In this document: one piece after another, positions 13,687 to 56,777 of the stretch
Position numbering within the stretch: position 1 is the first letter of the stretch
Layout of the letters: every line of letters begins with the position of its first letter
Assembly (NCBI GenBank): GCA_964387845.1
Contig: CAYLXA010000013.1
Span: 1 to 64,000 of the forward strand
Source of the DNA: an uncultured bacterium
GTDB lineage: Bacteria; Omnitrophota; Omnitrophia; Omnitrophales; Abzuiibacteriaceae
Reading direction: 5' to 3'
Length of the DNA stretch: 64,000 bases
Made by a program: the position numbers and the translations under genes
Notes under the pieces: generated by a model
The model's input: the letters and a program-made list of their open reading frames with translations, nothing else
What the model was told of the DNA's origin: nothing
Databases searched by the model: none

Positions 13687-15084
13687 ATGAAAACAAAACA
13701 TCTAATGAAAGTGATATCAGTATTTGTTTGTGCGCTCTTTTTAGCGTCAAATACAGTATTGGCTGATTCTATTGCAGTCGATAATTCCAAGCTTTTGGAC
13801 AAAATCGCTGCTCTGGAATCTAAAATAGCCCAGCTAGAATCAAAAGTGGCTATGCAGGGACATGTAACTCCAACCAAACAAACTCCGGAAATGGCTCCTA
13901 CCGGGTCCGGTTTATTGAAATCCAACGAGGATATCCATTTCGGCGGCTATGTTTCGACCGGTTATAACATTAACTGGTTGAGCCCGAACCCGGATGGTAA
14001 CTCAGGCGCTGTTCCGGCAGCTGGCGCAGCGAATGTCGCTGGCAACAACACCAATATCCGTGCTTTTGATCGCGACTCGAATACATTCCTCCAGAATGGA
14101 AAGATCACAATTGAAAAAGCAGCGACTGATGCAGGAACGGCCGGGTTTCGCGCCGATCTCATGTATGGCCGCGATGCGCAAATTTTAAACTCCGCAACAA
14201 TCGGTGATGCAACCGATAACTTCTTTGTCGAGCAAGCTTATGTCCAATATGTTGCCCCTATCGGCAATGGTATTGACATTAAGGCAGGCCGTTTTGTAAC
14301 GATTGCCGGCGCAGAAGTGATCGAGAGCAAGGACAACTGGAACACTTCCAGAAGCTTGCTTTTCAACAATGCTATTCCTTTTACTCACAATGGTGTCCTA
14401 GCCTCTTATACCATCAATGATATGGTTGATGTGAAGGCCGGTGTTGTGAATGGATGGGATTCTTCTATTGACAACAACAAAGGAAAGACAATTTTAGCCG
14501 CGGTTTCACTTCATCCGATGGCGGGATTGGACATCACCCAAAATTACATTATCGGTAAAGAGCAAGCCCGTACAGTTATGGGTGCGGGCGGAACTCCTAC
14601 TGCCGGTAATGCAGCCGAGCGTAATCTGCGCCACTTGCTTGATACTGTAGTTGCGTGGACACCGAATCCGGAGAATGATCGTTGGAAAGTGCTTGCCAAC
14701 TTTGACCTTGGTTGGGAAGAAAGAGGAACCAGCGTTGAAGGTGTTTCCGTATGGCATGGCGTTGCACTTGGCACTAAGTACGATGTGAATGATAAGCTCA
14801 CATTGGCTGCTCGTTGGGAATATTTCGCTGATAACGATGGCCATCGTATTGGCGCCCTCAACGGTTTAACCATGACAGAACGCACCAACTTTTATGAAAT
14901 GACTTACACGGCTGATTACAAGCTGGCCGCGAACCTCATTTCACGTCTCGAATGGCGCTATGATTGGGCAAACGATTCTGTCTTTGATTTGAGCAACAAC
15001 TTAGGCAACGGTGTAAACGCTACCAACGTTGGCGCAAGAAATTCCCAACATACGGTTGGCGCTGAGCTGATCTACGTTTTCTAA
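13687..15084 (+). CDS. putative outer-membrane porin (signal peptide, short coiled coil, beta-barrel; C-terminal Phe)
   Basis: Signal peptide, heptad segment LLDKIAALESKIAQLESKV, alternating hydrophobic beta-strand pattern, C-terminal ELIYVF. Confidence 0.5.
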   Translation: MKTKHLMKVISVFVCALFLASNTVLADSIAVDNSKLLDKIAALESKIAQLESKVAMQGHVTPTKQTPEMAPTGSGLLKSNEDIHFGGYVSTGYNINWLSPNPDGNSGAVPAAGAANVAGNNTNIRAFDRDSNTFLQNGKITIEKAATDAGTAGFRADLMYGRDAQILNSATIGDATDNFFVEQAYVQYVAPIGNGIDIKAGRFVTIAGAEVIESKDNWNTSRSLLFNNAIPFTHNGVLASYTINDMVDVKAGVVNGWDSSIDNNKGKTILAAVSLHPMAGLDITQNYIIGKEQARTVMGAGGTPTAGNAAERNLRHLLDTVVAWTPNPENDRWKVLANFDLGWEERGTSVEGVSVWHGVALGTKYDVNDKLTLAARWEYFADNDGHRIGALNGLTMTERTNFYEMTYTADYKLAANLISRLEWRYDWANDSVFDLSNNLGNGVNATNVGARNSQHTVGAELIYVF

Positions 15085-33854: not shown

Positions 33855-35336
33855 TTATACCTCCTGGAATTCAAATTTCAGGAGCTGTGATAAAATTTTC
33901 CCGGTCCAACGGTAAATATTGTTCTGGGCGACGATTTCGCGCATTTTACGCATGCGTTTCTCTTTTTCCTCCTGCGGCATCGCGAACGCTTGCTCAATCG
34001 CATCTGCAAATTGCTCCGAATCGTAAGGATTGATCAAAATCGCATCCGACAACTCTCTGGATGCGCCTGTGAATTTTGACAGGATCAGAGCACCGCCCAA
34101 ATCCTCGCGCGCCGCAACAAATTCCTTTGAAACCAAATTCATTCCGTCGTGAAGCGAGCTCACAACACAAACATCCGCCATCCGGTAAAGGGCTAGAATG
34201 TCGTCATAACTCACATAAGTACGCTTTAATACGATAGGTGCCCACGAATCAGTAGAATGTTTCCAGTTAATTTCCTCTACAAGCCCGTTAATTTCATCAT
34301 TCAGATGTTTATAGCGAGGAATGTGAATTCTTGAGATTTGGCCTATTTGAAGGAAAATAAATTTTTCTTTGTATTGAGGATATTTTTCAAGAAACCGGTC
34401 TATCGCGCGCAGTCTTTCGGGAATGCCCTTAGTGTAATCAATCCGGTCTACGCCGACGATTAATTTCAAATCACCGATTGAATACTCATCACGCAAGTTC
34501 TGAATCCGTGACCGGGTTTTGTCCGACGATGCTTGTTCCGAAATGGCTTCGAAATCAACCGAAATCGGAAATGCGCGTATCAGTGCTTCATGATTTTGAA
34601 ACGAAACCGAGTCACGTTCACGGTCAATCCGGCTTTCAACCTCGCGGTCAACCGTTGCGAAAAAATTATCCATGTGGTAACGAATCTGAAATCCGACAAG
34701 GTCGCACGATAAGAATCCTTCCAAAATTTCCTGTTTTTGCGGGCAAATCCTAAATACTTCCGGATTCGGCCACGGAATATGCCAGAAAATCGATGTGATG
34801 ATATTCAAACGCCCGGAATCACGTAGATATTTGGCAACGAGTGCGAGCTGAAAATCCTGGATCCAGACAAAAGCTTTTTCATTTCCGACTTCTGCTAAAA
34901 CCGCATCCGCGAACATTTTGTTTACCTTCTGATAGGATTTCCAGTCGGCGTCGTTAAATAACGGCCTCGTATAAGCCACATGGCACAATGGCCAAAGCCC
35001 CTCATTGGAAAAACCGTAATAGTATTTGTCACGGTCTTCTTTGCTGAGAAACATGCGTTTTAACTGGTAAGAAGGATTGTGCGGCGGGAGCATGACTTTT
35101 GAATTTGCATCGACCGCTTTTTTGTCGTGCTCACTTGAGGAGGCAGCAATCCAAGTTCCTTGGACGGCTTCCATGACGGGGCTAAGGGCGGTTACGAGGC
35201 CGCCCGGTTCGCGCTGACAGATTAATTTACCGCTTTGCAGAACATGCTTGAACGGCTGCCGATTGGAGACTACGATGAGTTTATAGTCGGACAAACGTTC
35301 TTGTATGGTTTTTTGAAGCGTTTCTTTGGTCCACAT
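33855..35336 (-). CDS. otsA: alpha,alpha-trehalose-phosphate synthase (GT20)
   Basis: LIVVSNRQP N-terminus and GT20-conserved regions (GGLVTAL, WIQDFQLALV). Confidence 0.88.
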   Translation of the reverse strand: MWTKETLQKTIQERLSDYKLIVVSNRQPFKHVLQSGKLICQREPGGLVTALSPVMEAVQGTWIAASSSEHDKKAVDANSKVMLPPHNPSYQLKRMFLSKEDRDKYYYGFSNEGLWPLCHVAYTRPLFNDADWKSYQKVNKMFADAVLAEVGNEKAFVWIQDFQLALVAKYLRDSGRLNIITSIFWHIPWPNPEVFRICPQKQEILEGFLSCDLVGFQIRYHMDNFFATVDREVESRIDRERDSVSFQNHEALIRAFPISVDFEAISEQASSDKTRSRIQNLRDEYSIGDLKLIVGVDRIDYTKGIPERLRAIDRFLEKYPQYKEKFIFLQIGQISRIHIPRYKHLNDEINGLVEEINWKHSTDSWAPIVLKRTYVSYDDILALYRMADVCVVSSLHDGMNLVSKEFVAAREDLGGALILSKFTGASRELSDAILINPYDSEQFADAIEQAFAMPQEEKEKRMRKMREIVAQNNIYRWTGKILSQLLKFEFQEV

Positions 35337-35342
35337 GATTTT

Positions 35343-35388
35343 GCCTTAAAATAGAAACCGCCACCTGAATTTTTCATTCAGATGGCGG
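35343..35388 (-). terminator. intrinsic terminator after nuoN2, only 22 nt upstream of the otsA start
   Basis: Stem ccgccacctgaat / attcagatggcgg (13 bp, one mismatch), loop ttttc, followed on the minus strand by TTTCTATTTT. Confidence 0.6.
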
Positions 35389-35540
35389 CCCGGCCATCAC
35401 TTCAAATTTAACCTCCGGAATATTTCCGGACCCTTTGGCGTAGAAAAGATTTTAAACCGTTTTTAAAATAAGGGCAAGGTTTTTATCCGAGTTTAGGAGA
35501 AATTTTCTACGAATTTTATTTTCGACGGGTGAAAAATATT

Positions 35541-45751: not shown

Positions 45752-45779
45752 ATTATAGTTAATCTGTAAGAAGTGTCAA
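45752..45779 (-). promoter_or_regulatory. consensus sigma70 promoter TTGACA-16-TATAAT (minus strand) for the nuoA-N operon
   Basis: On the minus strand: TTGACA (plus 45774-45779) and TATAAT (plus 45752-45757) with a 16-bp spacer, immediately upstream of nuoA. Confidence 0.6.
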
Positions 45780-45890: not shown

Positions 45891-48800
45891 TTAAACCGAG
45901 AGAGAAATTGTGGTTGGTGCTTTCTCGACTAAAATTTCAAAAAGGATTTCGAAAAATGTTTTCACCGGATTTCCGGAAGGTTTTGGGCCGCCGCGCAAAC
46001 GGATCATTTCGCCGTTGAATTTGTCCAATTGCTGTAATGACGCAACGCCGATTTGCAGAGGGGCGACACGGGTTGAGCTTTGGATTAAAGACTTGGCAGT
46101 TGAAATCGGTTCATTCTGAACTACCGCAGATTCATCAAGCGTTTCCAAACCTCCGGTTATTGTAGCAATTGCACCGGAAACATTTGCTTTTGTATTGGAG
46201 GCAGCCTGTCGCGGAACATTGCCGCTGCCGGATGCTGCCGCAGGCTGTGTTCCAGGGCTTGGGTTATTATAGGGCACAATCACGCCGACAATTCCCGGCG
46301 TATAATATCCGCCTGTGTTTTGAGGATTTGCCGTCTCTTGCGGTGAACCGTTTTCCGGCCCGCCTTCGTCCGGATTGGAATCCGGAGGATTCTGGGTTTC
46401 ACCGTTGGTAGCGGGGCTTTCCGGGATAACTGCAAATGTTGCTTCTATCGTATGATCAGAAGTGACGTTATTAAATGTATAACTCGAAACCGCGCCGACG
46501 GAGGTTGAATTCACAAGTACATCTTGGATTTCGTAGCGCGAATCGGGCGTAATTGTAAAAGTCGCATTGTCACCTTCGTTGACCACAACATCTCCAACCG
46601 GTGAAATTTGGCCGCCTTCCGAAGCGCTTGCGGTAATTGTGAAGGCTAGTGGATTACATGGAGCGCCTTCCGGGCAAATACACATATCGTTTGCTTCATC
46701 GCATTCTTCACCGGTGTCACAGGCAGAAGTTCCGGATTGGCATCCTGCTGTTGCATTACAAGTCTCGCTTCCGTTGCAGAATAATCCATCCGAACAAATC
46801 GAATCATCCGGCGTATTGGCGCAGCCGTTTACGGAATCGCAGGAATCATTTGTGCAGGAGACGCCATCATCACACACAAGCGGTGCGCTCGCCTGACAAC
46901 CTAAGCCGGGGTCACAGGTCTCCGTACCGTTACACACATTGGCGTCATCGCACACAAGCGGTGTTCCGGCCTGACAGGTATTATTTACACAAGCTTCAGC
47001 GCCGTTACATAAATTTCCGTCGCCACACTCCGAATCACTGATACAAGCAAAACACTGATCATTCGGTTCATCACAATGGTCCGGATCCGAGCAAGGCTCG
47101 GTTCCGTTTTGGCAAATTCCGGCAATACAAATTTCGGCTCCTGTGCAGAATAACCCGTCAGAACAGCTCATACCATCCACAACCGGGGTTGATTCGCAGC
47201 CCGTTGCAGGATCACAAGCTTCCGCGGTGCATGGATTGCCGTCATCACAGACAAGCGGCGCGCCTGTTTGACAACCCAGCGTTGAGTCGCAACTTTCAGG
47301 GCCGTTACAGACATTTCCGTCATCACATGTTAGCGGTATCCCGGATTGGCAACCCAAGGCAGAATCGCAGGTTTCTGTTCCGTTGCAGATGTTGCCATCA
47401 TCGCAAACGAGAGAAGTTCCGGCTGTACAGATGCCTGCCTGGCAAGTTTCCGTTCCATTACAAGCGTTGCTGTCATCACAGTCGGAGTCATTAAGGCATC
47501 CTGTGCATTGATCGTTTGTTTCGTCGCAGATCAGGTTTGGTCCTGAGCAAGGTGCCGGATTTGATTGGCAACCCAGAGCGGCGTTGCAGATTTCAGCTCC
47601 CGTGCAAAATAATCCGTCCGAGCAAACCGAATTGTCTGTTGTATGCACACATCCGCTCAAAGAATCGCAGGAATCATTCGTACAAGCAATTCCATCATCA
47701 CAATTAAGAGGAACACCCGATAAACAACCCAAAGTTGGATCGCAAGATTCAATACCGTTACACGCATCGGCGTCTCCGCAGTTTAATGGCGCACCCAACT
47801 GACAGCCAAGGACAGAATCACAGGTTTCTGTTCCGTTGCAGAGGTTGCCGTCATCGCAAGCAAGCGGAGTTCCTGGCTGGCATGAACCCGAGACGCAGGT
47901 TTCTGTGCCATTACAGGTATTGTTGTCTGAGCAATTTGCATCGGTTAAACATGCTTGCACTACGATAGTGATTGCCGGTGAAAATCCGCTGCCGAAACCG
48001 CCATCCTGAGGCGGCTGGGACCAAGCCTGTACACGGGCGTAGTAAGTTCCGGTTTGTGAAATTACAAACGGTTCAAAAATTCCCGATGGCCAGCGTTCAT
48101 CGATATTCTGTACAAAATTTGGATCCGGCGACAATTGTACTTGATAGATCGCAGCGCCCGGAACCGCGTCCCATTCCAAATTGAATGCTCCTAAATTCGG
48201 CGAAGGCGGATTTGCGCTCACGCCGGGCGGCGCCGAGAAATTCACGGAAATCATAATATCGTCGGAACCTGTGAGCATCGAGTCATCTGCGGTCAACCGT
48301 AATTGATAAGAACCCGGATGCGAAAATGTAACGGACGTGCTGGTATTGTTCGGCGGATTGAATGTGGCGATACCGCCGGAGCTGGTTACTTGCGACCAGC
48401 TGACCGTCACCGCACCGGGCGGATTCGGCAGACCATCATCCGTCACGCCGCCGTTAATGATTGCCGAAGTGCCGAAAGCGACGGTTTGATCATTTCCAAG
48501 GTCAACGGTTGGATTTTCATTCTGTAAAGTCGATTGGTACTCATACGGACCGATGTCGGTTTGCGCATCGCGCGGGCGGTCTCTGACGTCGGTATGCAAA
48601 TTCGGCATCGGAAATCCCGCGTCAATGGCGGCTGATTCGCTGTGCAAATCGTAATCGTTGACCGAAGGAGCTTCTGAAAAATTAACCATCAACACATCCG
48701 TTGCGGTTTGCAGGCTCGAATATGTGTCGACGCCGTTGAGAAATGACCGCCAGTTGTTGAAATTGGTTATGGGATCTGGTGACGACCACTCGATCCCGCC

Positions 48801-51800
48801 GGCTGCGAAATACTGACAGTCGATATAGATATTGTTGTTGTGCTGAATCGCCGCAAAATCTGTGTAGTTGAAGTAAGCTGCGCAATAAGCCGGCGCCGCT
48901 TCTTTTTTGTAAACGATGTTGTTTAAGAACTGAATGTTGGGGGCGCTTGACGGACTTGCCTCTGCGCCGATGAGGACCACGTAACTATCGTATCCGTTGC
49001 CGATCAGTAAATTGTTATAGAATCGGCCGTTTTCTTGGACGTTGTCCAAAGACAAAGCTTTTCCGATCGATGCGTCTACCACGTTATTAAAGAATTCAAT
49101 GTTGGAACCTATGCCGCCGACCGTGCCGTTGATGTAATTGTTGTAATAGCGGCTGTTACGGTTGAGTTGAAGTGCGCCCGAAAGGCCGGCGTTGATCGTT
49201 ATGTTGTTCGAAAATAAATTGCCAGCAGCATGTCCATAAATCACATGGCCGTATCGGTCATAGGTGTATTGCCAAGGATCTGATATTTCTGAAAGGCATA
49301 TCTCAACAGGATAGCTGGAGTCGTCGGCAATGACGAGAGGCCCGATATTTTCAAATCGGTTGTTCTGATAAGTAAAATAGTTATCAATTGTCGGGTGGGG
49401 CGTTAGATCCGCGATACCCATGCTATTAAGGCTTCTGAGAGTACTGTCATAAACTTCGATATATTGACCGGGATTTCCGCCGGGCAGCGGGTTCATTTTA
49501 ATACCTTCCTCGCCATGCTGAATGGTTAAGCCGATGAAACGGATGTAGGATGCTGACGTGTAAAACCGGTTTTGTCCGGGAAAGTAAAACGAATGTTCTG
49601 ACGGGTTGGTCCCGGACGGGAGGCGAATGTATAAGCGCCCACTTGTGCAATCGATAAAATAAGCGTTGAATGAAGTATTGGAATTCGGGATTGTTAATAC
49701 ATCAAGCATATCTTGATGACGGAGCATGCGGCTGAAGGGCCGTTCAAGATCCATGATTATGCCTCTCGGATAATTTCCTTCACCGCCGTTTGCGTTAGGA
49801 TCGTATGTTCCAAGCGATGTATCAGTCCACCAGATTGAATAATTGCCCGCGTTTTCTGAAAATGTCCAGTTTGAAGGAATGCTTGCTCCCGAATCAATGA
49901 CCGGTGTTTCGCCGGGATAGTTTCGAATGGTTACCCACTGATTCGGCGCTCCGCCGCGATCCATAAGGTTGTAGGATCCAAACGGCTGTGTTCCACCGCG
50001 GATGTAAACCGTATCTCCAGGATTGAGCTGATCAAACGTTGCGCTTACATTGCAAATCGGCTGGGCAAGAGATCCGGGGCCGCTGTTGCTGCACGCCGGA
50101 TTATTTGCATCAACTACGTAGTAATTTCCCGCGCAATCGTTTGAACAATCAAAATGGCTTTCACGCCGGAGATCACAGTAACCGTCACCGCAAGTCCCGG
50201 CGCAATCCTGCGAGCAGGTTTGAACCGTCTCTGGCGCTTCACAAATACCGTCGCCGCAAAGTGCGGTAGTGGTAACCGAAAAAGACGCTTCAATGGTGTG
50301 GGTTGTTTGTACGTTGTTAAACGTATAACTGGAAATAGCGCCTTGCGAAACGCTGTCGACGAGCACATCCGTAATTTCGTAACCGATATTGGGCGTGATT
50401 GTAAATATTTGATCGCTGCCTTCGGCAACATTGACCGTGCCGTTCGGTACAATGTAGCCGCCGTTATTTGCTGTTGCATTAATTGAATGTGAAGGGCCTT
50501 CTACTTGGCAGATTGAGCTGCAGCCGTCGCCGCTTGCCGTATTGCCGTCGTCGCAAGTTTCATTGCCGACGACTAAACCGTCACCGCAAATTGGATTACA
50601 TTCTGGGTTGCTGCCGGGATTTACAGTGTCAACGGAACAGGTCCAACCGGCCTCGTAATAAATCGTGTCTTGCATAATGGCCGAAATGTTTCCAACACTA
50701 TCAATCAATCTGGCAAACACTGTCCGTTCACCGCTCGGCCCGCTGGCAAGTTTCCAGCGCATGACGTTTTCATACGGAGTCGGGTCACTCCAAATTGTTC
50801 CGTTATTAGAAAATATTACGGATGTGATCGAGGATCCGCCTGAGTCAGAAACCGTTAAGTAGATATGCGAGTCTAACGAATAAGTAACCGCCGCGTCATT
50901 CTCAATCAGTATTGTTCCGCTCGGCGGTTCAAGATCAACGACAAACTGAACCACATTGGAATATTCGGTTGGGTTCCGCCCAAGTTGAAACGGCGGCACG
51001 GGCGGTGATTCCCATCCGCGCACGCGGGCGTGATAAGTATTTGAGGTGCTCAACGAAACAGGAACAAACGTATCGTTTGACCAAAGAGTCGTAACATTGG
51101 AAGCAAAATTAGGGTCGGTTGAAATTTTGATTTCGTAAGCATTTGAGCCCAGCGACGGAGTCCAAGCGAGATTAAAATCGCCGTCATTGGGCGTTGCGGG
51201 TTGCGCCAGAACAGGCTGGACGGCGGCTTGTGACGCAAAAGCCCCAATGTGGCAGCCTGTGCTTCCGGTTGGCGTGACGGAAACATTAAAACCGTTTTCG
51301 ATGACATTAAGGCACATGCCCGAGTGGCTTGCAGGACTGCCCGGTTGAAGATTGAAATCAGCGTTTGCGAGATCCACAAATTGCGGATCTGCTTGAATAT
51401 TTGAATCTGCCAGATTGAAGTTATTAAAATCAGCTACTGAGTAAAGCCCGCTCACCACGATTTGCCCGTTTCCGCCGCCATCTTTTAAAGCTCTAATAAC
51501 CGAAGTTTCGTGGGCCGGATTAGACGAGTAAATCAAATTATTTCGAATGTCATCGCCGTATCCGCCAAAATTCGTATCAACATATTCCAGCGGATCGTAA
51601 TGAAGCATTAGTAGCTCAGCATTGAAAGTATTGCCGAAAGAGACTGGTGAAACATAATCATGGTTGGCATCCATCAAAATATTGTTCCAGATGCGGACAT
51701 TATATATAGCATTCAGGGCGTCCGGAGGATTCCAGTTGAAATTGGCAGTATAAATTCCACGCGGCCCCGGACTGTGAATGGTATTGTTAAAGATGTATAC

Positions 51801-54800
51801 GTCCTGAATTAAATTTTGGTCAGCAACATTTGCAACGAGCGTGATTCCGGTAGAATCGTTAAATCCGTCATAAATAACGTTATTGTAAATGTAAAGTCGT
51901 TCTGTTTTTCCGGGCCCGATTTGAATTGCGCCGCCGCGGTGATTTGATTCTGAAGGGAATTGGTTGGTTCCAAAAAACGTGTTATTTCGAATAATCGTAT
52001 TTTGTGAAATGCCGGGATTTCCGTCAATTGAACCGATGCCGAATGAAGTGTGAAACCGATTTCGGAATGTATTATTCTCTATTAAAACATTTTCAGAATT
52101 CCGGAAACCGACAGTTCCATGTCCGCAATCACCGAACCAGCTGTTTTTAATAGTCGTATTTCTTGCATCATCGCCAACAATTCCGTCAACGCCGCCGCCG
52201 TTCATCAGAAGCAAGCTCGGGCTTGCCGTGCAATTTAAATTTAAATTGTCAATCTCTACTCCATCGGTATCGAGAACTTTAATTCCGTTTGCCCAAGGTT
52301 CCGCGTAACTTTGCTCCGGCGGCCAGCGGTGGCCAATGCCGATATCATCATTTCCGGTGAATGAAGTGACTGATATATTTTTGAGCTTGACGCCATTTGA
52401 CCGTTGAATGCCAAGCACGTAGGGTGCATACAATCTTCCGCCTGCGGTATCGATATGCCCAATGAAATTTAATGAATCAAAAGTAATGTCGTTTGCCAAA
52501 TAAGTTGTCAGCATATATATGCCGATATTGCTGCCTTGAGCCGTCATACTGCTGCCGTGTAAATTCACGGTTTCATTCGGATAGCCGCGAATCGTAATCG
52601 GGTTTGCCTCAGTTCCCGAACTTCGGATGACAATAAAATTGTTTGCATCAATGTAGGGGAGGAAGTAATCGCCGCCCCGAATGTAAACCGTATCGCCGAT
52701 ATTTAATTTTTCATAAGGAGACGTTTCACGAAGCGCTCTCGGCGTGCACCACGGCGTATTGGGATCGAGTGCTTGAGTTCTTGAGTAACTGTCCGAACAG
52801 TCACAATTATTTTGATCAATGAAAAGCATATTAGTTCCGTTCGCAAGCTCTTGCGGGTCGGAACTGCCGACCGTGCATCCGCCTTCGGATTGGCTTGTAT
52901 ATTCAAATGCGCCGGGCGCGCAACTTCCGCTTTCAGGACGCGGATTTCCGTCAAAATCCACCGCAACTTCCGGAAGACAAGGGACCGAGCCGATCGCAGG
53001 GCTGTCCTGCTGTAAATGAAAATCGCCGATACCAGCGTTTACGAAAAGCGGGTTGCCGTCTACGTTGTCTTCGGCGAATGACAGTGCATTAAATTCGTCG
53101 ATGGTGTAGTGATAACGCTGCGTGTTCCGATTGTTGGTGCTTTGGACCGGGTCTTCGGCAGGATTGAGTTCTTTGACCCAGTTATTTTCAAACACATTTC
53201 CATAGCCATTTTGGCCTTCAAAATCCCAGCCGCCCAGCCGGATTTCGCCGTGAATTTGTTCTCCTTCGCCCGTATAAGTTTGAATTCCGTAGAAAATATT
53301 ATTTTTGATTTGATTATTATTGGCCCAATTATTTTGGCCGAAAACGCCGTTATTGCCGACGCTCATGTTGGCGTAGCCTGTGTTGTAAACCGTGTTGTGA
53401 AAGATTTTATTGTTGTTGGCTTCAAAGAATCCGGTGCCGGGCCCGTTTTGATCCTGAGAATTGGCAATCGAAATTCCGTTTCCATTTAATGCGCCGTTGT
53501 AAATCACATTGTTATAAATCAGGTTGTCACTGGCCCCCAAAATCTGAATGCTGTTTGCGCGAAGCGTGGTCTCCGAAGGAATTGAATTGTAAGTATGAAA
53601 CGTGTTATTCCGGATGATGTTATCGTGAGAACCGACACCAACGGCGATATTGGTATGGAGCGTATTTGAAAAATCATTATTTTGCACCAAAACGTCATGC
53701 GTATTAAAACGAAGCACAAGTAGAATGTGGCCGCAGTCACGGAATGTATTGTTTTCGATTAAGCCGCCCGAGACATAATCCATCATGATGCCATCGCCGG
53801 AATAGCGGTTGTCCGGGTTAATTTGATCGTTAACTTGCATGCATCGGAAAAAACTATTCTTCACTGTGATGTTGCTTGCATTATCAAATTCGATGCCGTT
53901 GCCATAAGGTGCATTAGGAGCGCGATCGTCGTAGCCGATGTCATCGGTGCCTTTGAAGTCAACAACCGAAATGCTGTCAAATACAATATCGCTGCTTCCG
54001 CTGACAACCTCAATGACTCGCGGGCCATACAATTTTCCGTTTGGGTTACCAACATCCACGTTGCCGACAAAATGAAGATTTTCAAATGTGATGAAATGAA
54101 CGTCATTCAGAACAAATGTGCGTTCGAACGCTGTGTGCGCACCGCGGATGACTGCCGTTTCGCCGGGATATGAAGTGAATGTAATTCGGTTGCTATCGCT
54201 TGTGCCCGATGAATTGATTCTGACTGTGGTATCGACGATCGGATATTCACCGCCGCGAATATAAACGGTGTCGCCTGCGTTTAATTTGTGATTGGGCCGG
54301 TTTTCATGAAAGCCAAGAGGCGAACACCAGGGTGTATAAGGATCGCGTGCCGCATACCGGTCTCCAGCGTCGCTGCAGTTGCAATTATTTTTATCCACAA
54401 AGAGAACATTGGCGCCGTTGGCAAGCCCTTGCGGGTCAGAGCTTCCGGCTATGCAGCCTCCGAGCTCTGATGGGTGATTGTTGGGATCGTTGGGATTAAA
54501 TCCGCCTGCAAATTCTTCACCGTCTGAGTAGCCGTCACCGTCTGTGTCCGGATTATTAGGATCCGTGCCGTTTTGAAATTCCTGCAGATTGATAAATTGA
54601 TCATTGTCCGGGTCATCCGTGCCGTTTTGATTGAGATTGCCGAAGTGCAGCATTTCCCAAACGTCCGGCAAACCGTCTTGATCTGTATCTGAAGTGTCGT
54701 TGTAAACATACTCGAATGGACCGATGTCGCAGGCAGCGCCTTGCGGCCGGATATGGTTGTCAAAATCAAAATCTACTTCAGGAACACAGATTCCGGCATC

Positions 54801-56777
54801 CACTGCCGAGCTTTGCTCGGTTGGGTGAAAATCGTGATTCTGCGGATCGACAAATAAAGGCACGGTTCCGAGATTATCTACGATTGTTCCAGTCCCAAAA
54901 AGGTTATCCAGATTTTGAAGTGTGTAATCAAAGTGTATATACGGAGGATTGGAAGTTCCAAAATTTCGCGTAGACATCACAAATCCGCCCGGGTTGTCAG
55001 TCACCAGCAAATTATTTTTGATTTCATTTCCGTAACCCTGATTGGGTTCGAAGCCATAAATATCAAAGAAAATAGGACGGTTGAGATAATACGCATATGT
55101 CTGAGAGTAAGGTCCGTCGGCAGCTCCGCCGGTTTTAAGCTGGATGATATTGTTTTGCACTTTGTTGTCATGCACATAATTGGTATTTGGCAACAGGACG
55201 TCATTTATATCCGGACGATTATTAAACTCAATCGCTTTTACCATAGAGTTGTGCGTGGTTGCTGTCGGGTCGTCCATATAAATTAAATTATGATAAACCT
55301 GGTTCCGGTCGGAATTCGAATCGCCGTTTCCGATAAAAGTAATGCCGTGCAAGGAACGCCGCCTCGGCTCGTCAGCGTCGTAGTAAATGATGTTGTTGTG
55401 GATTTGGCTGTCGGAAGCCGAGAGCATTTCAATGGCATGGCCGCCTTGGTTTCCCGTGGTCGGGTACACATTCCAGTTGTAAATCAAATTATTTTTAATA
55501 GTCATTTGACTGCCGCCGAATGCAAAGCAGGTATGAAGTTCGTTATTACAGGAATTATTTTCAACCGTTATGTTGTCAGACCATCTAACCGTTAAGCTGA
55601 TATGTCCGCAATTTCCAAAAGTACTATTTTTTACGCTGCCACCGGATACGCGATTAAATTGAATCCCGTCGCCCGAGAAGCGAAAATCTTCGGTCGGGCG
55701 CTCAGAGTATTCAGAGCAGCTGACAGATGCATTCTCGATTTTAATATTAGAAACGTCATCAAATTGTATTGCACTCCCCCAAGTTTCATAGTCTTCCCCG
55801 GTTTTCCGCCACCTAAAGCCGTAACCGATGTCATTGAGGCTTTGAAAATTAAGAACGCTTGTATCTAAAATTTGAATATCTTGGGCTGGATTTCCAACAG
55901 TCCCGCTAATTCTCAACGGATTCGGCATGTAAAGTCTGCCTTCCGGCGTATCTTCATAGGCAATAAAATTAAGCCCCTTTAACGTAATGTAGCTGGCGTT
56001 ATTCAAGATCAGAATCCACGAATAATTATAAGAGCCGCCGCGTATGGTAACCGGCTCATAACCACTCGGTTCAGTTTGAGAGGGATATGCTTGGATCGTG
56101 ATCCGCTGCGCAGGCCCGGCGCCGGACGTATTAACGCTCGCATTATGTTCCGTATAGTCGCCGCGGCGAATGAAGACTGTATCGCCCGGATTCAATTTAT
56201 GGTTTGGCCTGTATTCGGTTAACCCGCGCAAACTACACCACGGTGTTGCGGGATTTAAGGCTTCCGGGCGTTCACGGTTATCGCGGCAATTACAATTGCT
56301 CTGATCGACAAACAGAACATTCAGCCCATTTGCCAAATTCAAAGGATCTGTATTGTTGTCACACTGACGAAGTGGAATACTGCTTGCGTTGGTCGGGCTA
56401 CTGCCTAATCTGATCTCGTCGTCATCATTGACGCCATCTCCGTCTGTGTCATATCCGATGTTTCCGTTGCCCACAGTTGGATTGGTATTAAAAGCAACTT
56501 CCCGAAAGTTGGGCACTCCGTCTCTATCCGGATCGTCGTATTGATCATAACTTGTGATATCGCCAAAGTATTGAATTTCCCAATCATCTGAAAGGCCATC
56601 AAAATCAGTGTCAATTTCACCGGCGGCAATTTGGGGAAGGGGAATGCCCATGAAGACGAGCGTGAAAATAATGATCAAAGAAACAAAATCAGAAAGAAAT
56701 TTGGAAACAACTTTCTTGAACTGCCGGGATTTTATTTTTTTTTTGTGTGATTTATCTGATTCGGAGCTTCGTCCCAT
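45891..56777 (-). CDS. giant (3628 aa) secreted/surface protein of repeated modules
   Basis: Uninterrupted 10.9-kb ORF with an N-terminal K-rich/hydrophobic signal. Four modules each begin ...LANG.N.LF.D..NC.C...PWC... GDTVYIRGG, followed by NN.I..N beta-helix-like turns. Modules: calcium-binding (thrombospondin type-3-like) DxDxDG repeats, four ~550-aa right-handed beta-helix (pectate-lyase-fold-like) domains, fibronectin-III-like stretches, two InlB B-repeat-like segments (YTFNNV..HTIEA.F), and about a dozen tandem ~38-aa Cys-rich repeats (CDDGN.CNGTETC). Confidence 0.85.
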   Translation of the reverse strand: MGRSSESDKSHKKKIKSRQFKKVVSKFLSDFVSLIIIFTLVFMGIPLPQIAAGEIDTDFDGLSDDWEIQYFGDITSYDQYDDPDRDGVPNFREVAFNTNPTVGNGNIGYDTDGDGVNDDDEIRLGSSPTNASSIPLRQCDNNTDPLNLANGLNVLFVDQSNCNCRDNRERPEALNPATPWCSLRGLTEYRPNHKLNPGDTVFIRRGDYTEHNASVNTSGAGPAQRITIQAYPSQTEPSGYEPVTIRGGSYNYSWILILNNASYITLKGLNFIAYEDTPEGRLYMPNPLRISGTVGNPAQDIQILDTSVLNFQSLNDIGYGFRWRKTGEDYETWGSAIQFDDVSNIKIENASVSCSEYSERPTEDFRFSGDGIQFNRVSGGSVKNSTFGNCGHISLTVRWSDNITVENNSCNNELHTCFAFGGSQMTIKNNLIYNWNVYPTTGNQGGHAIEMLSASDSQIHNNIIYYDADEPRRRSLHGITFIGNGDSNSDRNQVYHNLIYMDDPTATTHNSMVKAIEFNNRPDINDVLLPNTNYVHDNKVQNNIIQLKTGGAADGPYSQTYAYYLNRPIFFDIYGFEPNQGYGNEIKNNLLVTDNPGGFVMSTRNFGTSNPPYIHFDYTLQNLDNLFGTGTIVDNLGTVPLFVDPQNHDFHPTEQSSAVDAGICVPEVDFDFDNHIRPQGAACDIGPFEYVYNDTSDTDQDGLPDVWEMLHFGNLNQNGTDDPDNDQFINLQEFQNGTDPNNPDTDGDGYSDGEEFAGGFNPNDPNNHPSELGGCIAGSSDPQGLANGANVLFVDKNNCNCSDAGDRYAARDPYTPWCSPLGFHENRPNHKLNAGDTVYIRGGEYPIVDTTVRINSSGTSDSNRITFTSYPGETAVIRGAHTAFERTFVLNDVHFITFENLHFVGNVDVGNPNGKLYGPRVIEVVSGSSDIVFDSISVVDFKGTDDIGYDDRAPNAPYGNGIEFDNASNITVKNSFFRCMQVNDQINPDNRYSGDGIMMDYVSGGLIENNTFRDCGHILLVLRFNTHDVLVQNNDFSNTLHTNIAVGVGSHDNIIRNNTFHTYNSIPSETTLRANSIQILGASDNLIYNNVIYNGALNGNGISIANSQDQNGPGTGFFEANNNKIFHNTVYNTGYANMSVGNNGVFGQNNWANNNQIKNNIFYGIQTYTGEGEQIHGEIRLGGWDFEGQNGYGNVFENNWVKELNPAEDPVQSTNNRNTQRYHYTIDEFNALSFAEDNVDGNPLFVNAGIGDFHLQQDSPAIGSVPCLPEVAVDFDGNPRPESGSCAPGAFEYTSQSEGGCTVGSSDPQELANGTNMLFIDQNNCDCSDSYSRTQALDPNTPWCTPRALRETSPYEKLNIGDTVYIRGGDYFLPYIDANNFIVIRSSGTEANPITIRGYPNETVNLHGSSMTAQGSNIGIYMLTTYLANDITFDSLNFIGHIDTAGGRLYAPYVLGIQRSNGVKLKNISVTSFTGNDDIGIGHRWPPEQSYAEPWANGIKVLDTDGVEIDNLNLNCTASPSLLLMNGGGVDGIVGDDARNTTIKNSWFGDCGHGTVGFRNSENVLIENNTFRNRFHTSFGIGSIDGNPGISQNTIIRNNTFFGTNQFPSESNHRGGAIQIGPGKTERLYIYNNVIYDGFNDSTGITLVANVADQNLIQDVYIFNNTIHSPGPRGIYTANFNWNPPDALNAIYNVRIWNNILMDANHDYVSPVSFGNTFNAELLMLHYDPLEYVDTNFGGYGDDIRNNLIYSSNPAHETSVIRALKDGGGNGQIVVSGLYSVADFNNFNLADSNIQADPQFVDLANADFNLQPGSPASHSGMCLNVIENGFNVSVTPTGSTGCHIGAFASQAAVQPVLAQPATPNDGDFNLAWTPSLGSNAYEIKISTDPNFASNVTTLWSNDTFVPVSLSTSNTYHARVRGWESPPVPPFQLGRNPTEYSNVVQFVVDLEPPSGTILIENDAAVTYSLDSHIYLTVSDSGGSSITSVIFSNNGTIWSDPTPYENVMRWKLASGPSGERTVFARLIDSVGNISAIMQDTIYYEAGWTCSVDTVNPGSNPECNPICGDGLVVGNETCDDGNTASGDGCSSICQVEGPSHSINATANNGGYIVPNGTVNVAEGSDQIFTITPNIGYEITDVLVDSVSQGAISSYTFNNVQTTHTIEASFSVTTTALCGDGICEAPETVQTCSQDCAGTCGDGYCDLRRESHFDCSNDCAGNYYVVDANNPACSNSGPGSLAQPICNVSATFDQLNPGDTVYIRGGTQPFGSYNLMDRGGAPNQWVTIRNYPGETPVIDSGASIPSNWTFSENAGNYSIWWTDTSLGTYDPNANGGEGNYPRGIIMDLERPFSRMLRHQDMLDVLTIPNSNTSFNAYFIDCTSGRLYIRLPSGTNPSEHSFYFPGQNRFYTSASYIRFIGLTIQHGEEGIKMNPLPGGNPGQYIEVYDSTLRSLNSMGIADLTPHPTIDNYFTYQNNRFENIGPLVIADDSSYPVEICLSEISDPWQYTYDRYGHVIYGHAAGNLFSNNITINAGLSGALQLNRNSRYYNNYINGTVGGIGSNIEFFNNVVDASIGKALSLDNVQENGRFYNNLLIGNGYDSYVVLIGAEASPSSAPNIQFLNNIVYKKEAAPAYCAAYFNYTDFAAIQHNNNIYIDCQYFAAGGIEWSSPDPITNFNNWRSFLNGVDTYSSLQTATDVLMVNFSEAPSVNDYDLHSESAAIDAGFPMPNLHTDVRDRPRDAQTDIGPYEYQSTLQNENPTVDLGNDQTVAFGTSAIINGGVTDDGLPNPPGAVTVSWSQVTSSGGIATFNPPNNTSTSVTFSHPGSYQLRLTADDSMLTGSDDIMISVNFSAPPGVSANPPSPNLGAFNLEWDAVPGAAIYQVQLSPDPNFVQNIDERWPSGIFEPFVISQTGTYYARVQAWSQPPQDGGFGSGFSPAITIVVQACLTDANCSDNNTCNGTETCVSGSCQPGTPLACDDGNLCNGTETCDSVLGCQLGAPLNCGDADACNGIESCDPTLGCLSGVPLNCDDGIACTNDSCDSLSGCVHTTDNSVCSDGLFCTGAEICNAALGCQSNPAPCSGPNLICDETNDQCTGCLNDSDCDDSNACNGTETCQAGICTAGTSLVCDDGNICNGTETCDSALGCQSGIPLTCDDGNVCNGPESCDSTLGCQTGAPLVCDDGNPCTAEACDPATGCESTPVVDGMSCSDGLFCTGAEICIAGICQNGTEPCSDPDHCDEPNDQCFACISDSECGDGNLCNGAEACVNNTCQAGTPLVCDDANVCNGTETCDPGLGCQASAPLVCDDGVSCTNDSCDSVNGCANTPDDSICSDGLFCNGSETCNATAGCQSGTSACDTGEECDEANDMCICPEGAPCNPLAFTITASASEGGQISPVGDVVVNEGDNATFTITPDSRYEIQDVLVNSTSVGAVSSYTFNNVTSDHTIEATFAVIPESPATNGETQNPPDSNPDEGGPENGSPQETANPQNTGGYYTPGIVGVIVPYNNPSPGTQPAAASGSGNVPRQAASNTKANVSGAIATITGGLETLDESAVVQNEPISTAKSLIQSSTRVAPLQIGVASLQQLDKFNGEMIRLRGGPKPSGNPVKTFFEILFEILVEKAPTTISLSV

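What the first reader, a model, noticed from the sequence alone, without database searches (positions are those of the whole stretch)
45891..56777. Giant 3628-aa secreted protein built from four beta-helix modules plus Ca-binding, FN3-like, InlB-B-like and Cys-rich repeat arrays
One 10.9-kb ORF (17% of the window) lies immediately upstream of the complex I operon. Architecture, from the N-terminus:
- A K-rich/hydrophobic signal.
- A DxDxDG calcium-binding linker.
- Four ~550-aa modules (approximately nt 54693-56366, 52880-54460, 51215-52880 and 48380-50105). Each opens with a conserved Cys-containing header and GDTV(Y/F)IRGG and is rich in NN.I..N turns typical of right-handed parallel beta-helix carbohydrate-binding or lyase domains.
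- FN3-like segments and two InlB B-repeat-like segments.
- About a dozen ~38-aa Cys-rich repeats (CDDGN.CNGTETC).
- A 178-aa Pro/Gly-rich C-terminal tail.

This is a modular adhesin or polysaccharide-processing surface protein of a kind not assignable to a named family. No recognisable T9SS, LPXTG or autotransporter sorting domain was seen.
Basis: partly seen in the sequence, partly recalled or inferred. Interest (0 to 1): 0.6.

Follow-up and report, generated by a model that had tools for sequence, protein, structure and literature searches.

The report
Large beta-helix surface protein, Omnitrophota
This is a real 3,628-residue exported protein of an uncultured Omnitrophota bacterium, built from sugar-binding/cutting "beta-helix" modules on a stalk of spacer domains; it is an uncharacterised but fairly ordinary example of the big surface proteins this phylum is known for.

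Summary
The ORF (45891-56777, minus strand, 3,628 aa) is real, and most of the described architecture checks out.

- There are three well-conserved beta-helix modules and one degenerate fourth.
- The Cys-rich repeat unit is about 26 aa, not 38. About 17 units form three ~151-aa super-repeats.
- The last ~68 aa are a conserved element, not a Pro/Gly tail.

**Origin and assembly**
- The genome is Candidatus Omnitrophota.
- A related genome (NuoD 93% identical) has a 3,181-aa orthologue at the same position upstream of nuoA.
- There are no long DNA repeats, so mis-assembly is unlikely.

**What the modules are**
- Module 2 models confidently (pLDDT 84) as a right-handed parallel beta-helix.
- It resembles alginate epimerases and lyases, GH136 and phage tailspikes by fold only (8-20% identity). 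It belongs to no characterised enzyme family.
- Modules 1-3 keep an Asp/Arg/Asp/His/His/Arg set conserved across 29 family modules. Module 4 has lost it.

**Most likely function (inferred)**
A Sec-exported, disulfide- and calcium-stabilised protein that binds, and probably cleaves, a polysaccharide on other cells or in their matrix.

**Other points**
- The complex I adjacency looks incidental, because nuoA has its own consensus promoter.
- Verdict: a new member of a known kind, of modest interest.

The parts
56619..56777 (-). N-terminal export signal, aa 1-53. A Lys/Arg-rich n-region is followed by the hydrophobic core FVSLIIIFTLVFMGIPLPQIAAG. There is no lipobox Cys.
   Evidence: This is the only hydrophobic segment of the protein. 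P0152 and P0153 have the same layout. The cleavage site was not predicted with a dedicated tool.
56376..56618 (-). Calcium-binding linker 1, aa 54-134, made of DxDxDG-type bacterial TSP3 repeats.
   Evidence: TSP3_bac 33 bits, cut-off 25, two stretches.
54693..56375 (-). Beta-helix module M1, aa 135-695. It has a 4-Cys N-terminal cap, the motif PGDTVFIRRG, the beta-helix, and a choice-of-anchor Q C-terminal cap.
   Evidence: Beta_helix 30.6 bits. choice_anch_Q 32.9 bits. It is 30-47% identical to M2. It keeps D316, R322, D370, H392, H415, K428.
54471..54692 (-). Calcium-binding linker 2, aa 696-769.
   Evidence: TSP3_bac 36 bits and Binary_toxB Ca-binding domain 28.4 bits.
52884..54470 (-). 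Beta-helix module M2, aa 770-1298. This is the module that was modelled.
51228..52883 (-). Beta-helix module M3, aa 1299-1850.
   Evidence: Beta_helix 28.2 bits and Disaggr_assoc 22.5 bits, just under its cut-off of 22.6. It is 33-49% identical to M2. It keeps D1478, R1484, D1531, H1553, H1576, R1597. No choice_anch_Q hit.
50943..51227 (-). FN3-like domain 1, aa 1851-1945.
   Evidence: It is 42% identical to aa 2853-2923. A profile gives weak hits to FN3-type PDB chains, E 0.001-0.02. No Pfam fn3 hit.
50640..50942 (-). Unassigned ~100-aa segment, aa 1946-2046. It always follows the FN3-like domain in the orthologue and is presumed to be a beta-sandwich.
   Evidence: No Pfam, NCBIfam or PDB sequence match. 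The FN3-like plus this segment occurs twice in P0152. The fold was not tested.
50496..50639 (-). Cys-rich acidic repeat (DUF4215 / myxo_disulf_rpt), aa 2047-2094.
   Evidence: DUF4215 43.7 bits. TIGR02232 48 bits.
50262..50495 (-). InlB B-repeat-like domain 1, aa 2095-2172.
   Evidence: It is 54% identical to copy 2. Flg_new_2 15.1 bits, below the cut-off.
50130..50261 (-). Two short CGDGxC...C..DC Cys knots, aa 2173-2216.
   Evidence: Read directly from the sequence. No model hit.
48513..50129 (-). Divergent beta-helix module M4, aa 2217-2755. It keeps PGDTVYIRGG and the choice-of-anchor Q cap but lacks the conserved central polar residues.
   Evidence: The family HMM matches only positions 22-131 and 305-525. 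choice_anch_Q 27.6 bits. AF2 pLDDT 58, pTM 0.62. Foldseek finds the same beta-helix structures. No Pfam hit. No close relative in JGI metagenome contigs.
48240..48512 (-). PKD-type Ig-like domain, aa 2756-2846.
   Evidence: K319L-like_PKD 27.8 bits, cut-off 27.
47955..48239 (-). FN3-like domain 2, aa 2847-2941.
46650..47954 (-). Cys-rich array, aa 2942-3376. About 17 units of ~26 aa with 4 Cys each (CDDGN.CNGTETCD...GCQ.G.PL) form three ~151-aa super-repeats.
   Evidence: Dicty_CTDC 45.4 bits. Super-repeats are 55-61% identical. Cys positions are listed. DNA repeat spacing is 75-78 nt. The array is absent from the orthologue.
46386..46649 (-). InlB B-repeat-like domain 2, aa 3377-3464.
   Evidence: Flg_new_2 23.8-24.2 bits, cut-off 23.6.
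46098..46385 (-). Low-complexity Gly/Pro/Asn/Ala/Ser/Thr linker, aa 3465-3560.
   Evidence: Composition.
45894..46097 (-). Conserved C-terminal element, aa 3561-3628: ...STRVAPLQIG.ASL.QL.KFN...IR.RGGP..SGNP..TFF.IL.EI...KA.T.ISLSV. It is a candidate tether or sorting element of unknown kind.
   Evidence: It is conserved in P0152 and more loosely in P0153. No TM segment. No family hit. No relatives found.
45752..45779 (-). Sigma-70 consensus promoter (TTGACA-16-TATAAT) between the gene's stop codon and nuoA. It is not part of the gene but bears on the operon question.
   Evidence: 12 of 12 matches. Sequence shown.

Best explanation
An intact gene of a Candidatus Omnitrophota bacterium encodes a 3,628-aa protein. 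The protein is exported through the Sec pathway by an N-terminal signal and folds outside the cytoplasm with many disulfides (116 Cys) and bound calcium (TSP3 linkers).

**Working parts**
- Three paralogous right-handed parallel beta-helix modules (M1-M3) belong to a small uncharacterised subfamily.
- Each module has a 4-Cys N-terminal cap, the motif PGDTVYIRGG, a pectin-lyase-fold helix and a choice-of-anchor Q C-terminal cap.
- Each helix carries a conserved Asp...Arg...Asp...His...His...Arg/Lys set.
- D995, H1017, H1041 and N1064 are one rung (22-24 residues) apart and would stack along one face of the helix.
- A fourth module (M4) has lost those residues.

**Spacers**
FN3-like, PKD and InlB-B domains and a ~430-aa Cys-rich array separate the modules and probably hold them away from the cell. 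A lineage-specific conserved C-terminal element probably tethers or sorts the protein.

**Most likely function**
The protein binds a polysaccharide on another cell's envelope or in its matrix. M1-M3 probably cleave or modify it. This would serve attachment and feeding, in line with the host-dependent or predatory lifestyle proposed for this phylum.

**Shown:** ORF integrity, domain content, beta-helix fold, conservation pattern, orthologue, fast divergence.

**Inferred:** export route, final location, disulfides, calcium binding, carbohydrate substrate, catalysis, role of the tail.
For: **ORF and architecture:**

**Organism**
- NuoD is 100% identical to P0032, and named relatives are Candidatus Omnitrophica/Omnitrophota.
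- A BBP2 porin in the window indicates an outer membrane.

**Real gene, not an assembly artefact**
- There are no tandem repeats, and DNA direct repeats are at most 49 nt at 60-93% identity.
- An independently assembled JGI contig has a 3,181-aa orthologue directly upstream of nuoA, with 65% identity over 1,455 aa spanning M2-M3.

**Fold**
- The M2 model has pLDDT 83.9 and pTM 0.89.
- The Foldseek top hits are GH136 lacto-N-biosidases (TM 0.58) and PL6 lyases.

**Functional constraint**
- D946, R952, D995, H1017, H1041 and R1056 are present in 24-28 of 29 family modules. The family includes members from Nomurabacteria and other lineages.
- All six positions are kept in M1-M3.
- They are missing from M4.

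**Surface-protein behaviour**
- Neighbouring housekeeping proteins are 80-95% identical between the two genomes.
- The shared parts of this protein are only 56-65% identical.
- The C-terminal half has different domains: M4 plus the Cys array in the window, against roughly ten InlB-B-type repeats in the orthologue.

**Phylum context**
Against: - No characterised enzyme family is matched by sequence. Pfam gives only generic Beta_helix, and the PDB sequence search gives only an unnamed 'parallel beta-helix repeat protein', 9rx2, at E 1e-10.
- The loop with the conserved DDIGYG..R motif is modelled with low confidence (M2 segment residues 175-187).
- I could not map the conserved residues onto coordinates.
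- No route across the outer membrane and no known anchor was identified.
- No neighbouring gene suggests a substrate.
- The particular Omnitrophota lineage has complex I and may be free-living, so a host or prey target is conjecture.
Confidence: 0.6

Rival explanations
1. The protein is a purely structural or adhesive surface protein, such as a coat, fibre or adhesin. The beta-helices act only as rigid binding rods and have no catalytic activity.
For: - Much of the protein is spacer or adhesion-type domains: InlB-B, PKD, FN3-like and Cys repeats.
- M4 lacks the conserved polar set but is retained.
- No CAZy-type Pfam family reaches significance.
Against: Charged and His residues are conserved at the same positions in 24-28 of 29 modules at about 30% overall identity. 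That fits a ligand or catalytic site better than a scaffold. Most structural neighbours are enzymes.
Confidence: 0.3
2. The ORF is an assembly chimera of several smaller repeat-containing genes.
For: The sequence comes from a metagenome-type assembly. The exact protein is absent from the public protein collection. M4 and the Cys array have no counterpart in the orthologue and no close relative in JGI contigs.
Against: - The internal repeats are only 25-69% identical at protein level.
- There are no long DNA repeats or tandem arrays that could mislead an assembler.
- One frame stays open for 10,884 nt.
- The N-terminal signal, the M1-M2-M3 order and the C-terminal element are all reproduced in an independent assembly at the same genomic position.
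- GC content is in the range of the rest of the window.
Confidence: 0.03
3. The gene is functionally tied to the complex I operon that follows it, for example by co-transcription as an accessory factor.
For: It has the same strand and immediate adjacency (151-nt gap), and the arrangement is conserved in a related genome.
Against: - A perfect TTGACA-16-TATAAT promoter lies in the gap in front of nuoA.
- The two genomes are close relatives, so synteny says little.
- An exported, Cys-rich beta-helix protein has no known role in NADH dehydrogenase.
- Single-module relatives sit in unrelated neighbourhoods.
Confidence: 0.02

Closest known systems
Right-handed parallel beta-helix carbohydrate-active enzymes: AlgE4/AlgG mannuronan C5-epimerases, PL6 and PL9 lyases, GH136 lacto-N-biosidase, GH87, GH28
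   Different: Sequence identity is only 8-20%. None of their Pfam families is hit. Their catalytic motifs were not found by any test here. The 4-Cys N-terminal cap and the choice-of-anchor Q C-terminal cap are specific to this subfamily.
Phage tailspike and capsule depolymerases
   Different: Tailspikes are trimeric virion proteins with one helix per chain. This protein is chromosomal, carries a signal, and has four helices in tandem plus stalk domains. Oligomeric state is unknown.
Single-module homologues such as MCC6290841.1 (Candidatus Nomurabacteria, P0003) and P0001, P0002, P0004, P0005
   Same: They carry the same module subfamily (38-52% identity over 97% of M2), the same Cys cap and conserved residues, and are followed by DUF4215-like Cys repeats.
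   Different: They are 740-900 aa with one module, a Big_7 domain and a hydrophobic C-terminal segment that reads as a membrane anchor (my reading of the alignment; no TM predictor was run). They lack the tail seen here. All are uncharacterised.
Omnitrophota giant proteins (Archaeovorin-type and Dockerin-type; West-Roberts et al. 2023, 10.1101/2023.11.21.568195)
   Same: Same phylum. They are also predicted to be extracellular, contain TSP3 calcium-binding repeats, and have proposed roles in attachment and carbohydrate degradation.
   Different: Those proteins are 10,000 to more than 100,000 aa, carry many transmembrane helices and mostly have SecA-DEAD, peptidase C39 or dockerin domains. This one is 3,628 aa with a single N-terminal hydrophobic segment and none of those domains.
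PfbA of Streptococcus pneumoniae (beta-helix adhesin)
   Different: PfbA is LPXTG-anchored with a single helix in a Gram-positive organism. No LPXTG motif or model hit is present here.

Membership tests
Pfam Beta_helix (PF13229), right-handed beta-helix region | Score above the gathering cut-off of 25.9 bits | tested here: met
   M1 30.6, M2 35.9 and M3 28.2 bits; whole protein 77.3 bits. M4 has no hit.
Right-handed parallel beta-helix fold (pectin-lyase-like) | The three-dimensional model superposes on solved beta-helix proteins | tested here: met
NCBIfam choice-of-anchor Q domain (NF041518) | Score above the cut-off of 25 bits | tested here: met
   M1 32.9, M2 25.1 and M4 27.6 bits; M3 none.
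Characterised beta-helix CAZy families (PL1, PL3, PL6, PL9, GH28, GH136 and others) | Sequence-level match to the family model or to a solved member | tested here: not met
   No such Pfam family at E <= 0.1 for any module. In the PDB profile search, Jun a 1 (PL1) scores E 0.006, GH120 0.14 and GH28 0.62, and GH136 is absent.
Characterised beta-helix CAZy families | Presence of the family's catalytic residues in the right geometry | not testable with these tools
Only the linear conservation pattern is known.
Methanosarcina disaggregatase-related (PF08480) | Score above the cut-off of 22.6 bits | tested here: inconclusive
   M3 scores 22.5 bits, E 1.2e-4, just under the cut-off. Precomputed weak hits exist for P0005 and P0007.
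Bacterial TSP3 calcium-binding repeat (PF18884) | Score above 25 bits and the DxDxDG-type motif | tested here: met
   33 and 36 bits. The motifs DTDFDG, DPDRDG and DTDGDG are visible. Calcium binding itself was not tested.
InlB B-repeat / Flg_new_2 (PF18998) | Score above 23.6 bits | tested here: met
   Copy 2 scores 23.8-24.2 bits. Copy 1 scores 15.1 bits but is 54% identical to copy 2.
Dicty_CTDC Cys-rich repeat (PF00526) | Score above 27 bits, with ~24-aa 4-Cys units | tested here: met
   45.4 bits with 3 stretches. The ~26-aa unit spacing comes from Cys positions.
Fibronectin type III | Match to an fn3 model or to solved FN3 domains | tested here: inconclusive
   - No Pfam hit at E <= 0.1.
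- A 7-sequence profile gives E 0.001-0.02 to the N-terminal domains of oligo-alginate lyase and heparinase II/III-like proteins, to Fn3-named chains (7jgt, 3mpc) and to cytokine-receptor chains.
- hhalign against human FN3-10 shows no match.
Known C-terminal sorting signals (T9SS CTD, LPXTG, PEP-CTERM, autotransporter barrel) | Model hit, or a terminal TM segment plus basic tail | tested here: not met
   No Pfam or NCBIfam hit in the last 694 aa apart from repeats. No C-terminal hydrophobic segment.
Type I secretion (RTX-type) substrate | No N-terminal signal, few Cys, GGxGxD repeats and a C-terminal signal | tested here: not met
   An N-terminal hydrophobic signal is present and the protein has 116 Cys. 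No RTX/HemolysinCabind hit.
Omnitrophota giant proteins as defined in the literature | Length of at least 10,000-30,000 aa, many TM helices, SecA-DEAD, C39 or dockerin domains | tested here: not met
   3,628 aa, one hydrophobic segment and none of those domains.

The most novel reading that the evidence does not exclude
The module subfamily (Cys cap, beta-helix with the D/R/D/H/H/R line, choice-of-anchor Q cap) could be a new family of polysaccharide-cleaving or polysaccharide-modifying enzymes. Ultra-small, host-dependent lineages (Omnitrophota, Nomurabacteria/CPR, possibly an archaeon) would use it to attack the envelope of partner cells. The conserved ~68-aa C-terminal element would then be a new lineage-specific surface-tethering or sorting signal.
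Probability: 0.15. Interest if true: 0.6.

Novelty: new member of a known kind. Interest (0 to 1): 0.3.

Why it matters
Omnitrophota are uncultured, mostly ultra-small bacteria. Their proposed predatory or symbiotic lifestyles are inferred largely from big surface proteins that nobody has characterised.

- **Tractable size.** At 3.6 kaa this protein is far smaller than the 10-150 kaa giants of the phylum. Its modules fold confidently in silico, and one module (~530 aa) could be expressed and assayed.
- **Testable residues.** The module carries a clear set of conserved candidate active-site residues.
- **Possible specificity determinant.** Its shared parts have diverged much further (56-65% identity) than the neighbouring proteins (80-95%), and its C-terminal half carries different domains in the two related genomes. 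It may therefore determine target specificity.

It nonetheless remains one more uncharacterised modular beta-helix surface protein. The representative library holds 369 relatives at E <= 1e-30 and more than 11,000 at E <= 1e-10.

Tried and rejected
- **Whole-protein homology search.** It timed out, so I used modules instead.
- **Exact look-up of the protein and of NuoD.** Neither is on record. The organism was identified through NuoD homologues instead.
- **Scan of GTDB representative genomes.** The only usable pattern was the generic PGDTVYIRGG motif, which brought in distant beta-helix proteins from many phyla (24-28% identity over the module). It found neither the source genome nor close relatives.
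- **C-terminal tail search in the 5.8-billion protein collection.** No hits. tblastn of the tail against all fetched loci found only the orthologue.
- **Search for independent assemblies of the M4 region.** An exact 36-mer search and a protein-pattern search of JGI metagenome contigs both found nothing.
- **PDB sequence searches.** The FN3-like plus unassigned segment and the Cys array gave no hits.
- **hhalign of the FN3-like profile against human FN3-10.** No match.
- **Gene neighbourhoods of single-module homologues.** They contain housekeeping or unrelated genes and give no hint of a substrate.
- **Literature search for PDB entry 9rx2.** This is the best sequence match in the PDB, but no paper mentions it.
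- **Rejected readings.**
  - T1SS substrate: the protein has a signal and many Cys.
  - Lipoprotein: there is no lipobox Cys.
  - Link to the complex I operon: nuoA has its own promoter.
  - Recent horizontal transfer: GC is 0.46-0.51 against 0.41-0.49 elsewhere in the window.
Full report
**1. The observation**

The window has a single open frame on the minus strand from 56777 (ATG) to 45891, 3,628 codons plus a stop. It is 17% of the window. Downstream on the same strand lie nuoA, B, C, D, (I), H and further complex I genes. Upstream and divergent is an AhpC/TSA peroxiredoxin. The amino-acid composition is rich in Asn, Gly, Ser, Asp and Thr, with 116 Cys. Only one segment is hydrophobic enough for a membrane helix: aa ~22-55, after a Lys/Arg-rich start.

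**2. Anatomy**

Self-comparison of 200-aa pieces and HMM scans give this order:

| aa | element |
|---|---|
| 1-53 | export signal |
| 54-134 | TSP3 calcium-type repeats |
| 135-695 | module M1 |
| 696-769 | TSP3 / Binary_toxB Ca-binding linker |
| 770-1298 | module M2 |
| 1299-1850 | module M3 |
| 1851-1945 | FN3-like domain |
| 1946-2046 | unassigned ~100-aa segment |
| 2047-2094 | DUF4215 / TIGR02232 Cys repeat |
| 2095-2172 | InlB-B (Flg_new_2)-like domain |
| 2173-2216 | two short Cys knots |
| 2217-2755 | module M4 |
| 2756-2846 | PKD domain |
| 2847-2941 | second FN3-like domain |
| 2942-3376 | Cys-rich array |
| 3377-3464 | second InlB-B domain |
| 3465-3560 | low-complexity linker |
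| 3561-3628 | distinct C-terminal element |

- M1-M3 are 25-48% identical to each other. Each hits Pfam Beta_helix above the cut-off.
- M1, M2 and M4 hit NCBIfam choice-of-anchor Q at their C-terminal ends.

- M4 is much more divergent than described (section 5).
- The Cys array is built from ~26-aa, 4-Cys units. About 17 units form three ~151-aa super-repeats that are 55-61% identical, and the array scores as Dicty_CTDC at 45.4 bits. The period is not 38 aa.
- The 'FN3-like' label is only weakly supported. There is no Pfam hit, and a profile of seven such segments gives E 0.001-0.02 to FN3-type chains in the PDB.
- The tail is Pro/Gly-rich only in its first ~96 residues.

**3. Is the ORF an assembly artefact?**

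- At the DNA level there are no tandem repeats, and the longest direct repeats are 26-49 nt at 60-93% identity. An assembler has nothing to collapse or mis-join.
- GC content is in line with the rest of the window.
- A NuoD search identified the organism as Candidatus Omnitrophota. It also found a relative with 93% identical NuoD on a 525-kb JGI contig.
- That contig has a 3,181-aa gene at the same position directly upstream of nuoA. Its product (P0152) has the same signal, TSP3 linker, M1, M2 and M3 (65% identity over 1,455 aa across the M2-M3 junction) and the same C-terminal element.

The exact protein is not in the public protein collection. I could not find an independent assembly of the M4 plus Cys-array part. 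That part therefore rests on this assembly alone.

**4. Fold of the modules**

M2 was modelled from a 12-sequence alignment with mean pLDDT 83.9 and pTM 0.89. The model is a stack of short strands typical of a parallel beta-helix.

- Foldseek ranks GH136 lacto-N-biosidases first (TM 0.58), then PL6 lyases.
- Sequence identities are 8-20%.
- By sequence, the best PDB match is an entry described only as 'parallel beta-helix repeat protein' (9rx2, E 1e-10). No characterised family reaches significance.

The fold is therefore certain, but membership of a characterised enzyme family is not supported.

**5. The module subfamily and its conserved residues**

A word-indexed search with M2 found only 31 relatives. 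Eight are close: 30-52% identity over more than 95% of the module. All are single-module proteins of 616-909 aa, and one is annotated from Candidatus Nomurabacteria.

An exhaustive profile search of 1.84 billion representatives found:
- 369 proteins at E <= 1e-30 and 11,391 at E <= 1e-10;
- about 35 that match the whole module;
- many 4,000-7,700-aa proteins with 5-16 partial matches.

Tandem beta-helix modules in very long proteins are therefore common.

In an alignment of 29 full modules, these positions are kept in at least 80% of modules (M2 numbering):
- the Cys of the N-terminal cap;
- the motif PGDTVYIRGG;
- an Asn ladder;
- the polar residues D946, R952, D995, H1017, H1041, R1056 and N1064.

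D995, H1017, H1041 and N1064 are 22-24 residues apart, which is one rung. They would therefore stack along one face of the helix. This stacking is inferred from spacing only, because I could not read model coordinates. M1, M2 and M3 keep all of these residues, with R to K in M1.

M4 aligns to the family HMM only at its cap (positions 22-131) and its C-terminal third (305-525), and lacks the central set. Its model is poor (pLDDT 58) but still retrieves the same beta-helix structures. My reading is three potentially active modules and one degenerate, perhaps binding-only, module.

**6. Export and location**

- The window encodes an OmpL-like beta-barrel porin, so the cell has an outer membrane.
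- The N-terminal segment looks like a Sec signal with a long basic n-region and no lipobox. P0152 and P0153 have the same layout.
- The many Cys (about eight conserved per module, and 70 in the array) and the TSP3 repeats point to folding outside the cytoplasm. This is inference.
- No T9SS, LPXTG, PEP-CTERM or autotransporter signal is present, and there is no C-terminal TM segment.
- The last ~68 residues (…STRVAPLQIG…DKFN…RGGP…NP.KTFFEILFEILVEKAPTTISLSV) are conserved in the orthologue. They are recognisably similar in a third protein, P0153 (2,432 aa, two modules).
- This element has no family hit, and no relatives were found in a 5.8-billion protein collection.

Whether the element tethers, sorts or docks the protein is unresolved. 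So is how the protein crosses the outer membrane, if it does.

**7. Evolutionary behaviour**

Between the window and the related genome, eleven complex I proteins and the next gene are 80-95% identical. The shared parts of the big protein are only 56-65% identical, and the domain content differs:
- The orthologue inserts an FN3-like pair and one Dicty_CTDC unit between M1 and M2.
- It lacks M4, the PKD domain and the Cys array.
- It carries roughly ten InlB-B/Flg_new repeats instead.

Fast divergence and domain swapping are what one expects of an exposed protein that interacts with variable targets.

**8. Relation to complex I**

The 151-nt gap before nuoA contains a perfect TTGACA-16-TATAAT promoter. 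The adjacency is conserved only between close relatives. Single-module homologues sit in unrelated neighbourhoods. I regard the adjacency as incidental.

**9. Most likely function**

The protein is probably exported and held at or released from the cell surface. Its beta-helix modules bind a polysaccharide, and M1-M3 probably cleave or modify it. The other domains act as spacers, stalk and extra adhesion sites.

This fits the literature on the phylum. Large extracellular proteins are proposed to mediate attachment to, and degradation of the surface polysaccharides of, host or prey cells (10.1101/2023.11.21.568195; PMC10066038). However, this protein is not one of the described giant classes. 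It is ten-fold shorter, has one hydrophobic segment, and has no SecA-DEAD, C39 or dockerin domain.

The main rival is a non-catalytic adhesin or coat protein. I put the carbohydrate-directed surface protein reading at about 0.6 overall, and catalysis as such at about even odds.

**10. Verdict**

This is a new, uncharacterised member of a known kind: a large modular beta-helix surface protein in a phylum noted for such proteins. Interest is modest. The most interesting open points are the conserved polar line in the module subfamily and the conserved C-terminal element.

Noticed in passing
window 35380-35433 (-): An nhaA-I RNA (Rfam RF03057, a riboswitch class; from memory it senses Na+) scores 44.1 bits against a gathering score of 37. 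It lies between nuoN and ORF 33855-35336. The 86%-identical counterpart of that ORF in L082 is annotated Glyco_transf_20 (trehalose-6-phosphate synthase, from memory) and is followed by a trehalose phosphatase gene. This looks like a sodium-sensing leader in front of osmoprotectant genes.
   Followed up: partly
window 45752-45779 (-): A perfect sigma-70 consensus promoter (TTGACA, 16-nt spacer, TATAAT; 12 of 12 matches) lies directly in front of nuoA.
   Followed up: partly
window 13687-15084 (+): An OmpL-like beta-barrel porin (Pfam BBP2, E 7e-71) indicates a diderm envelope.
   Followed up: no
L082:1-8250 (JGI 3300028648, Ga0268299_1000036) versus window 45891-56777: The orthologue (P0152, 3,181 aa) shares the N-terminal half at 56-65% identity. 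It replaces M4, the PKD domain and the Cys array by roughly ten InlB-B/Flg_new repeats. Neighbouring housekeeping proteins are 80-95% identical.
   Followed up: yes
L084 and L085 (GCA_013328915.1); L083 and L086: The single-module relatives P0004 and P0005 come from one assembly whose neighbouring genes look archaeal (DUF7504, Helicase_dom4_arc, SepF). P0001 and P0003 sit in a conserved SecG-GroES-GroEL ... LemA-peptidase M48 neighbourhood in Nomurabacteria-type genomes. The subfamily may be enriched in ultra-small, host-dependent lineages.
   Followed up: partly
P0159 (1,133 aa), residues ~560-1000: One family module is fused to a second region that begins AFPGAVGYGAKATGGRGGDVYVVTNL. From memory this resembles the start of PL1 pectate lyases, but Pfam gave no hit. 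This is a lead only.
   Followed up: no
P0153 (2,432 aa), residues ~130-800: A two-module relative with the same type of C-terminal element carries an extra ~700-aa N-terminal region with no Pfam match.
   Followed up: no
window 179-2479 (+): A 766-aa ORF has as its only Pfam match a sigma-70 region 4 segment (aa 389-438, E 8e-7). It is otherwise unassigned.
   Followed up: no
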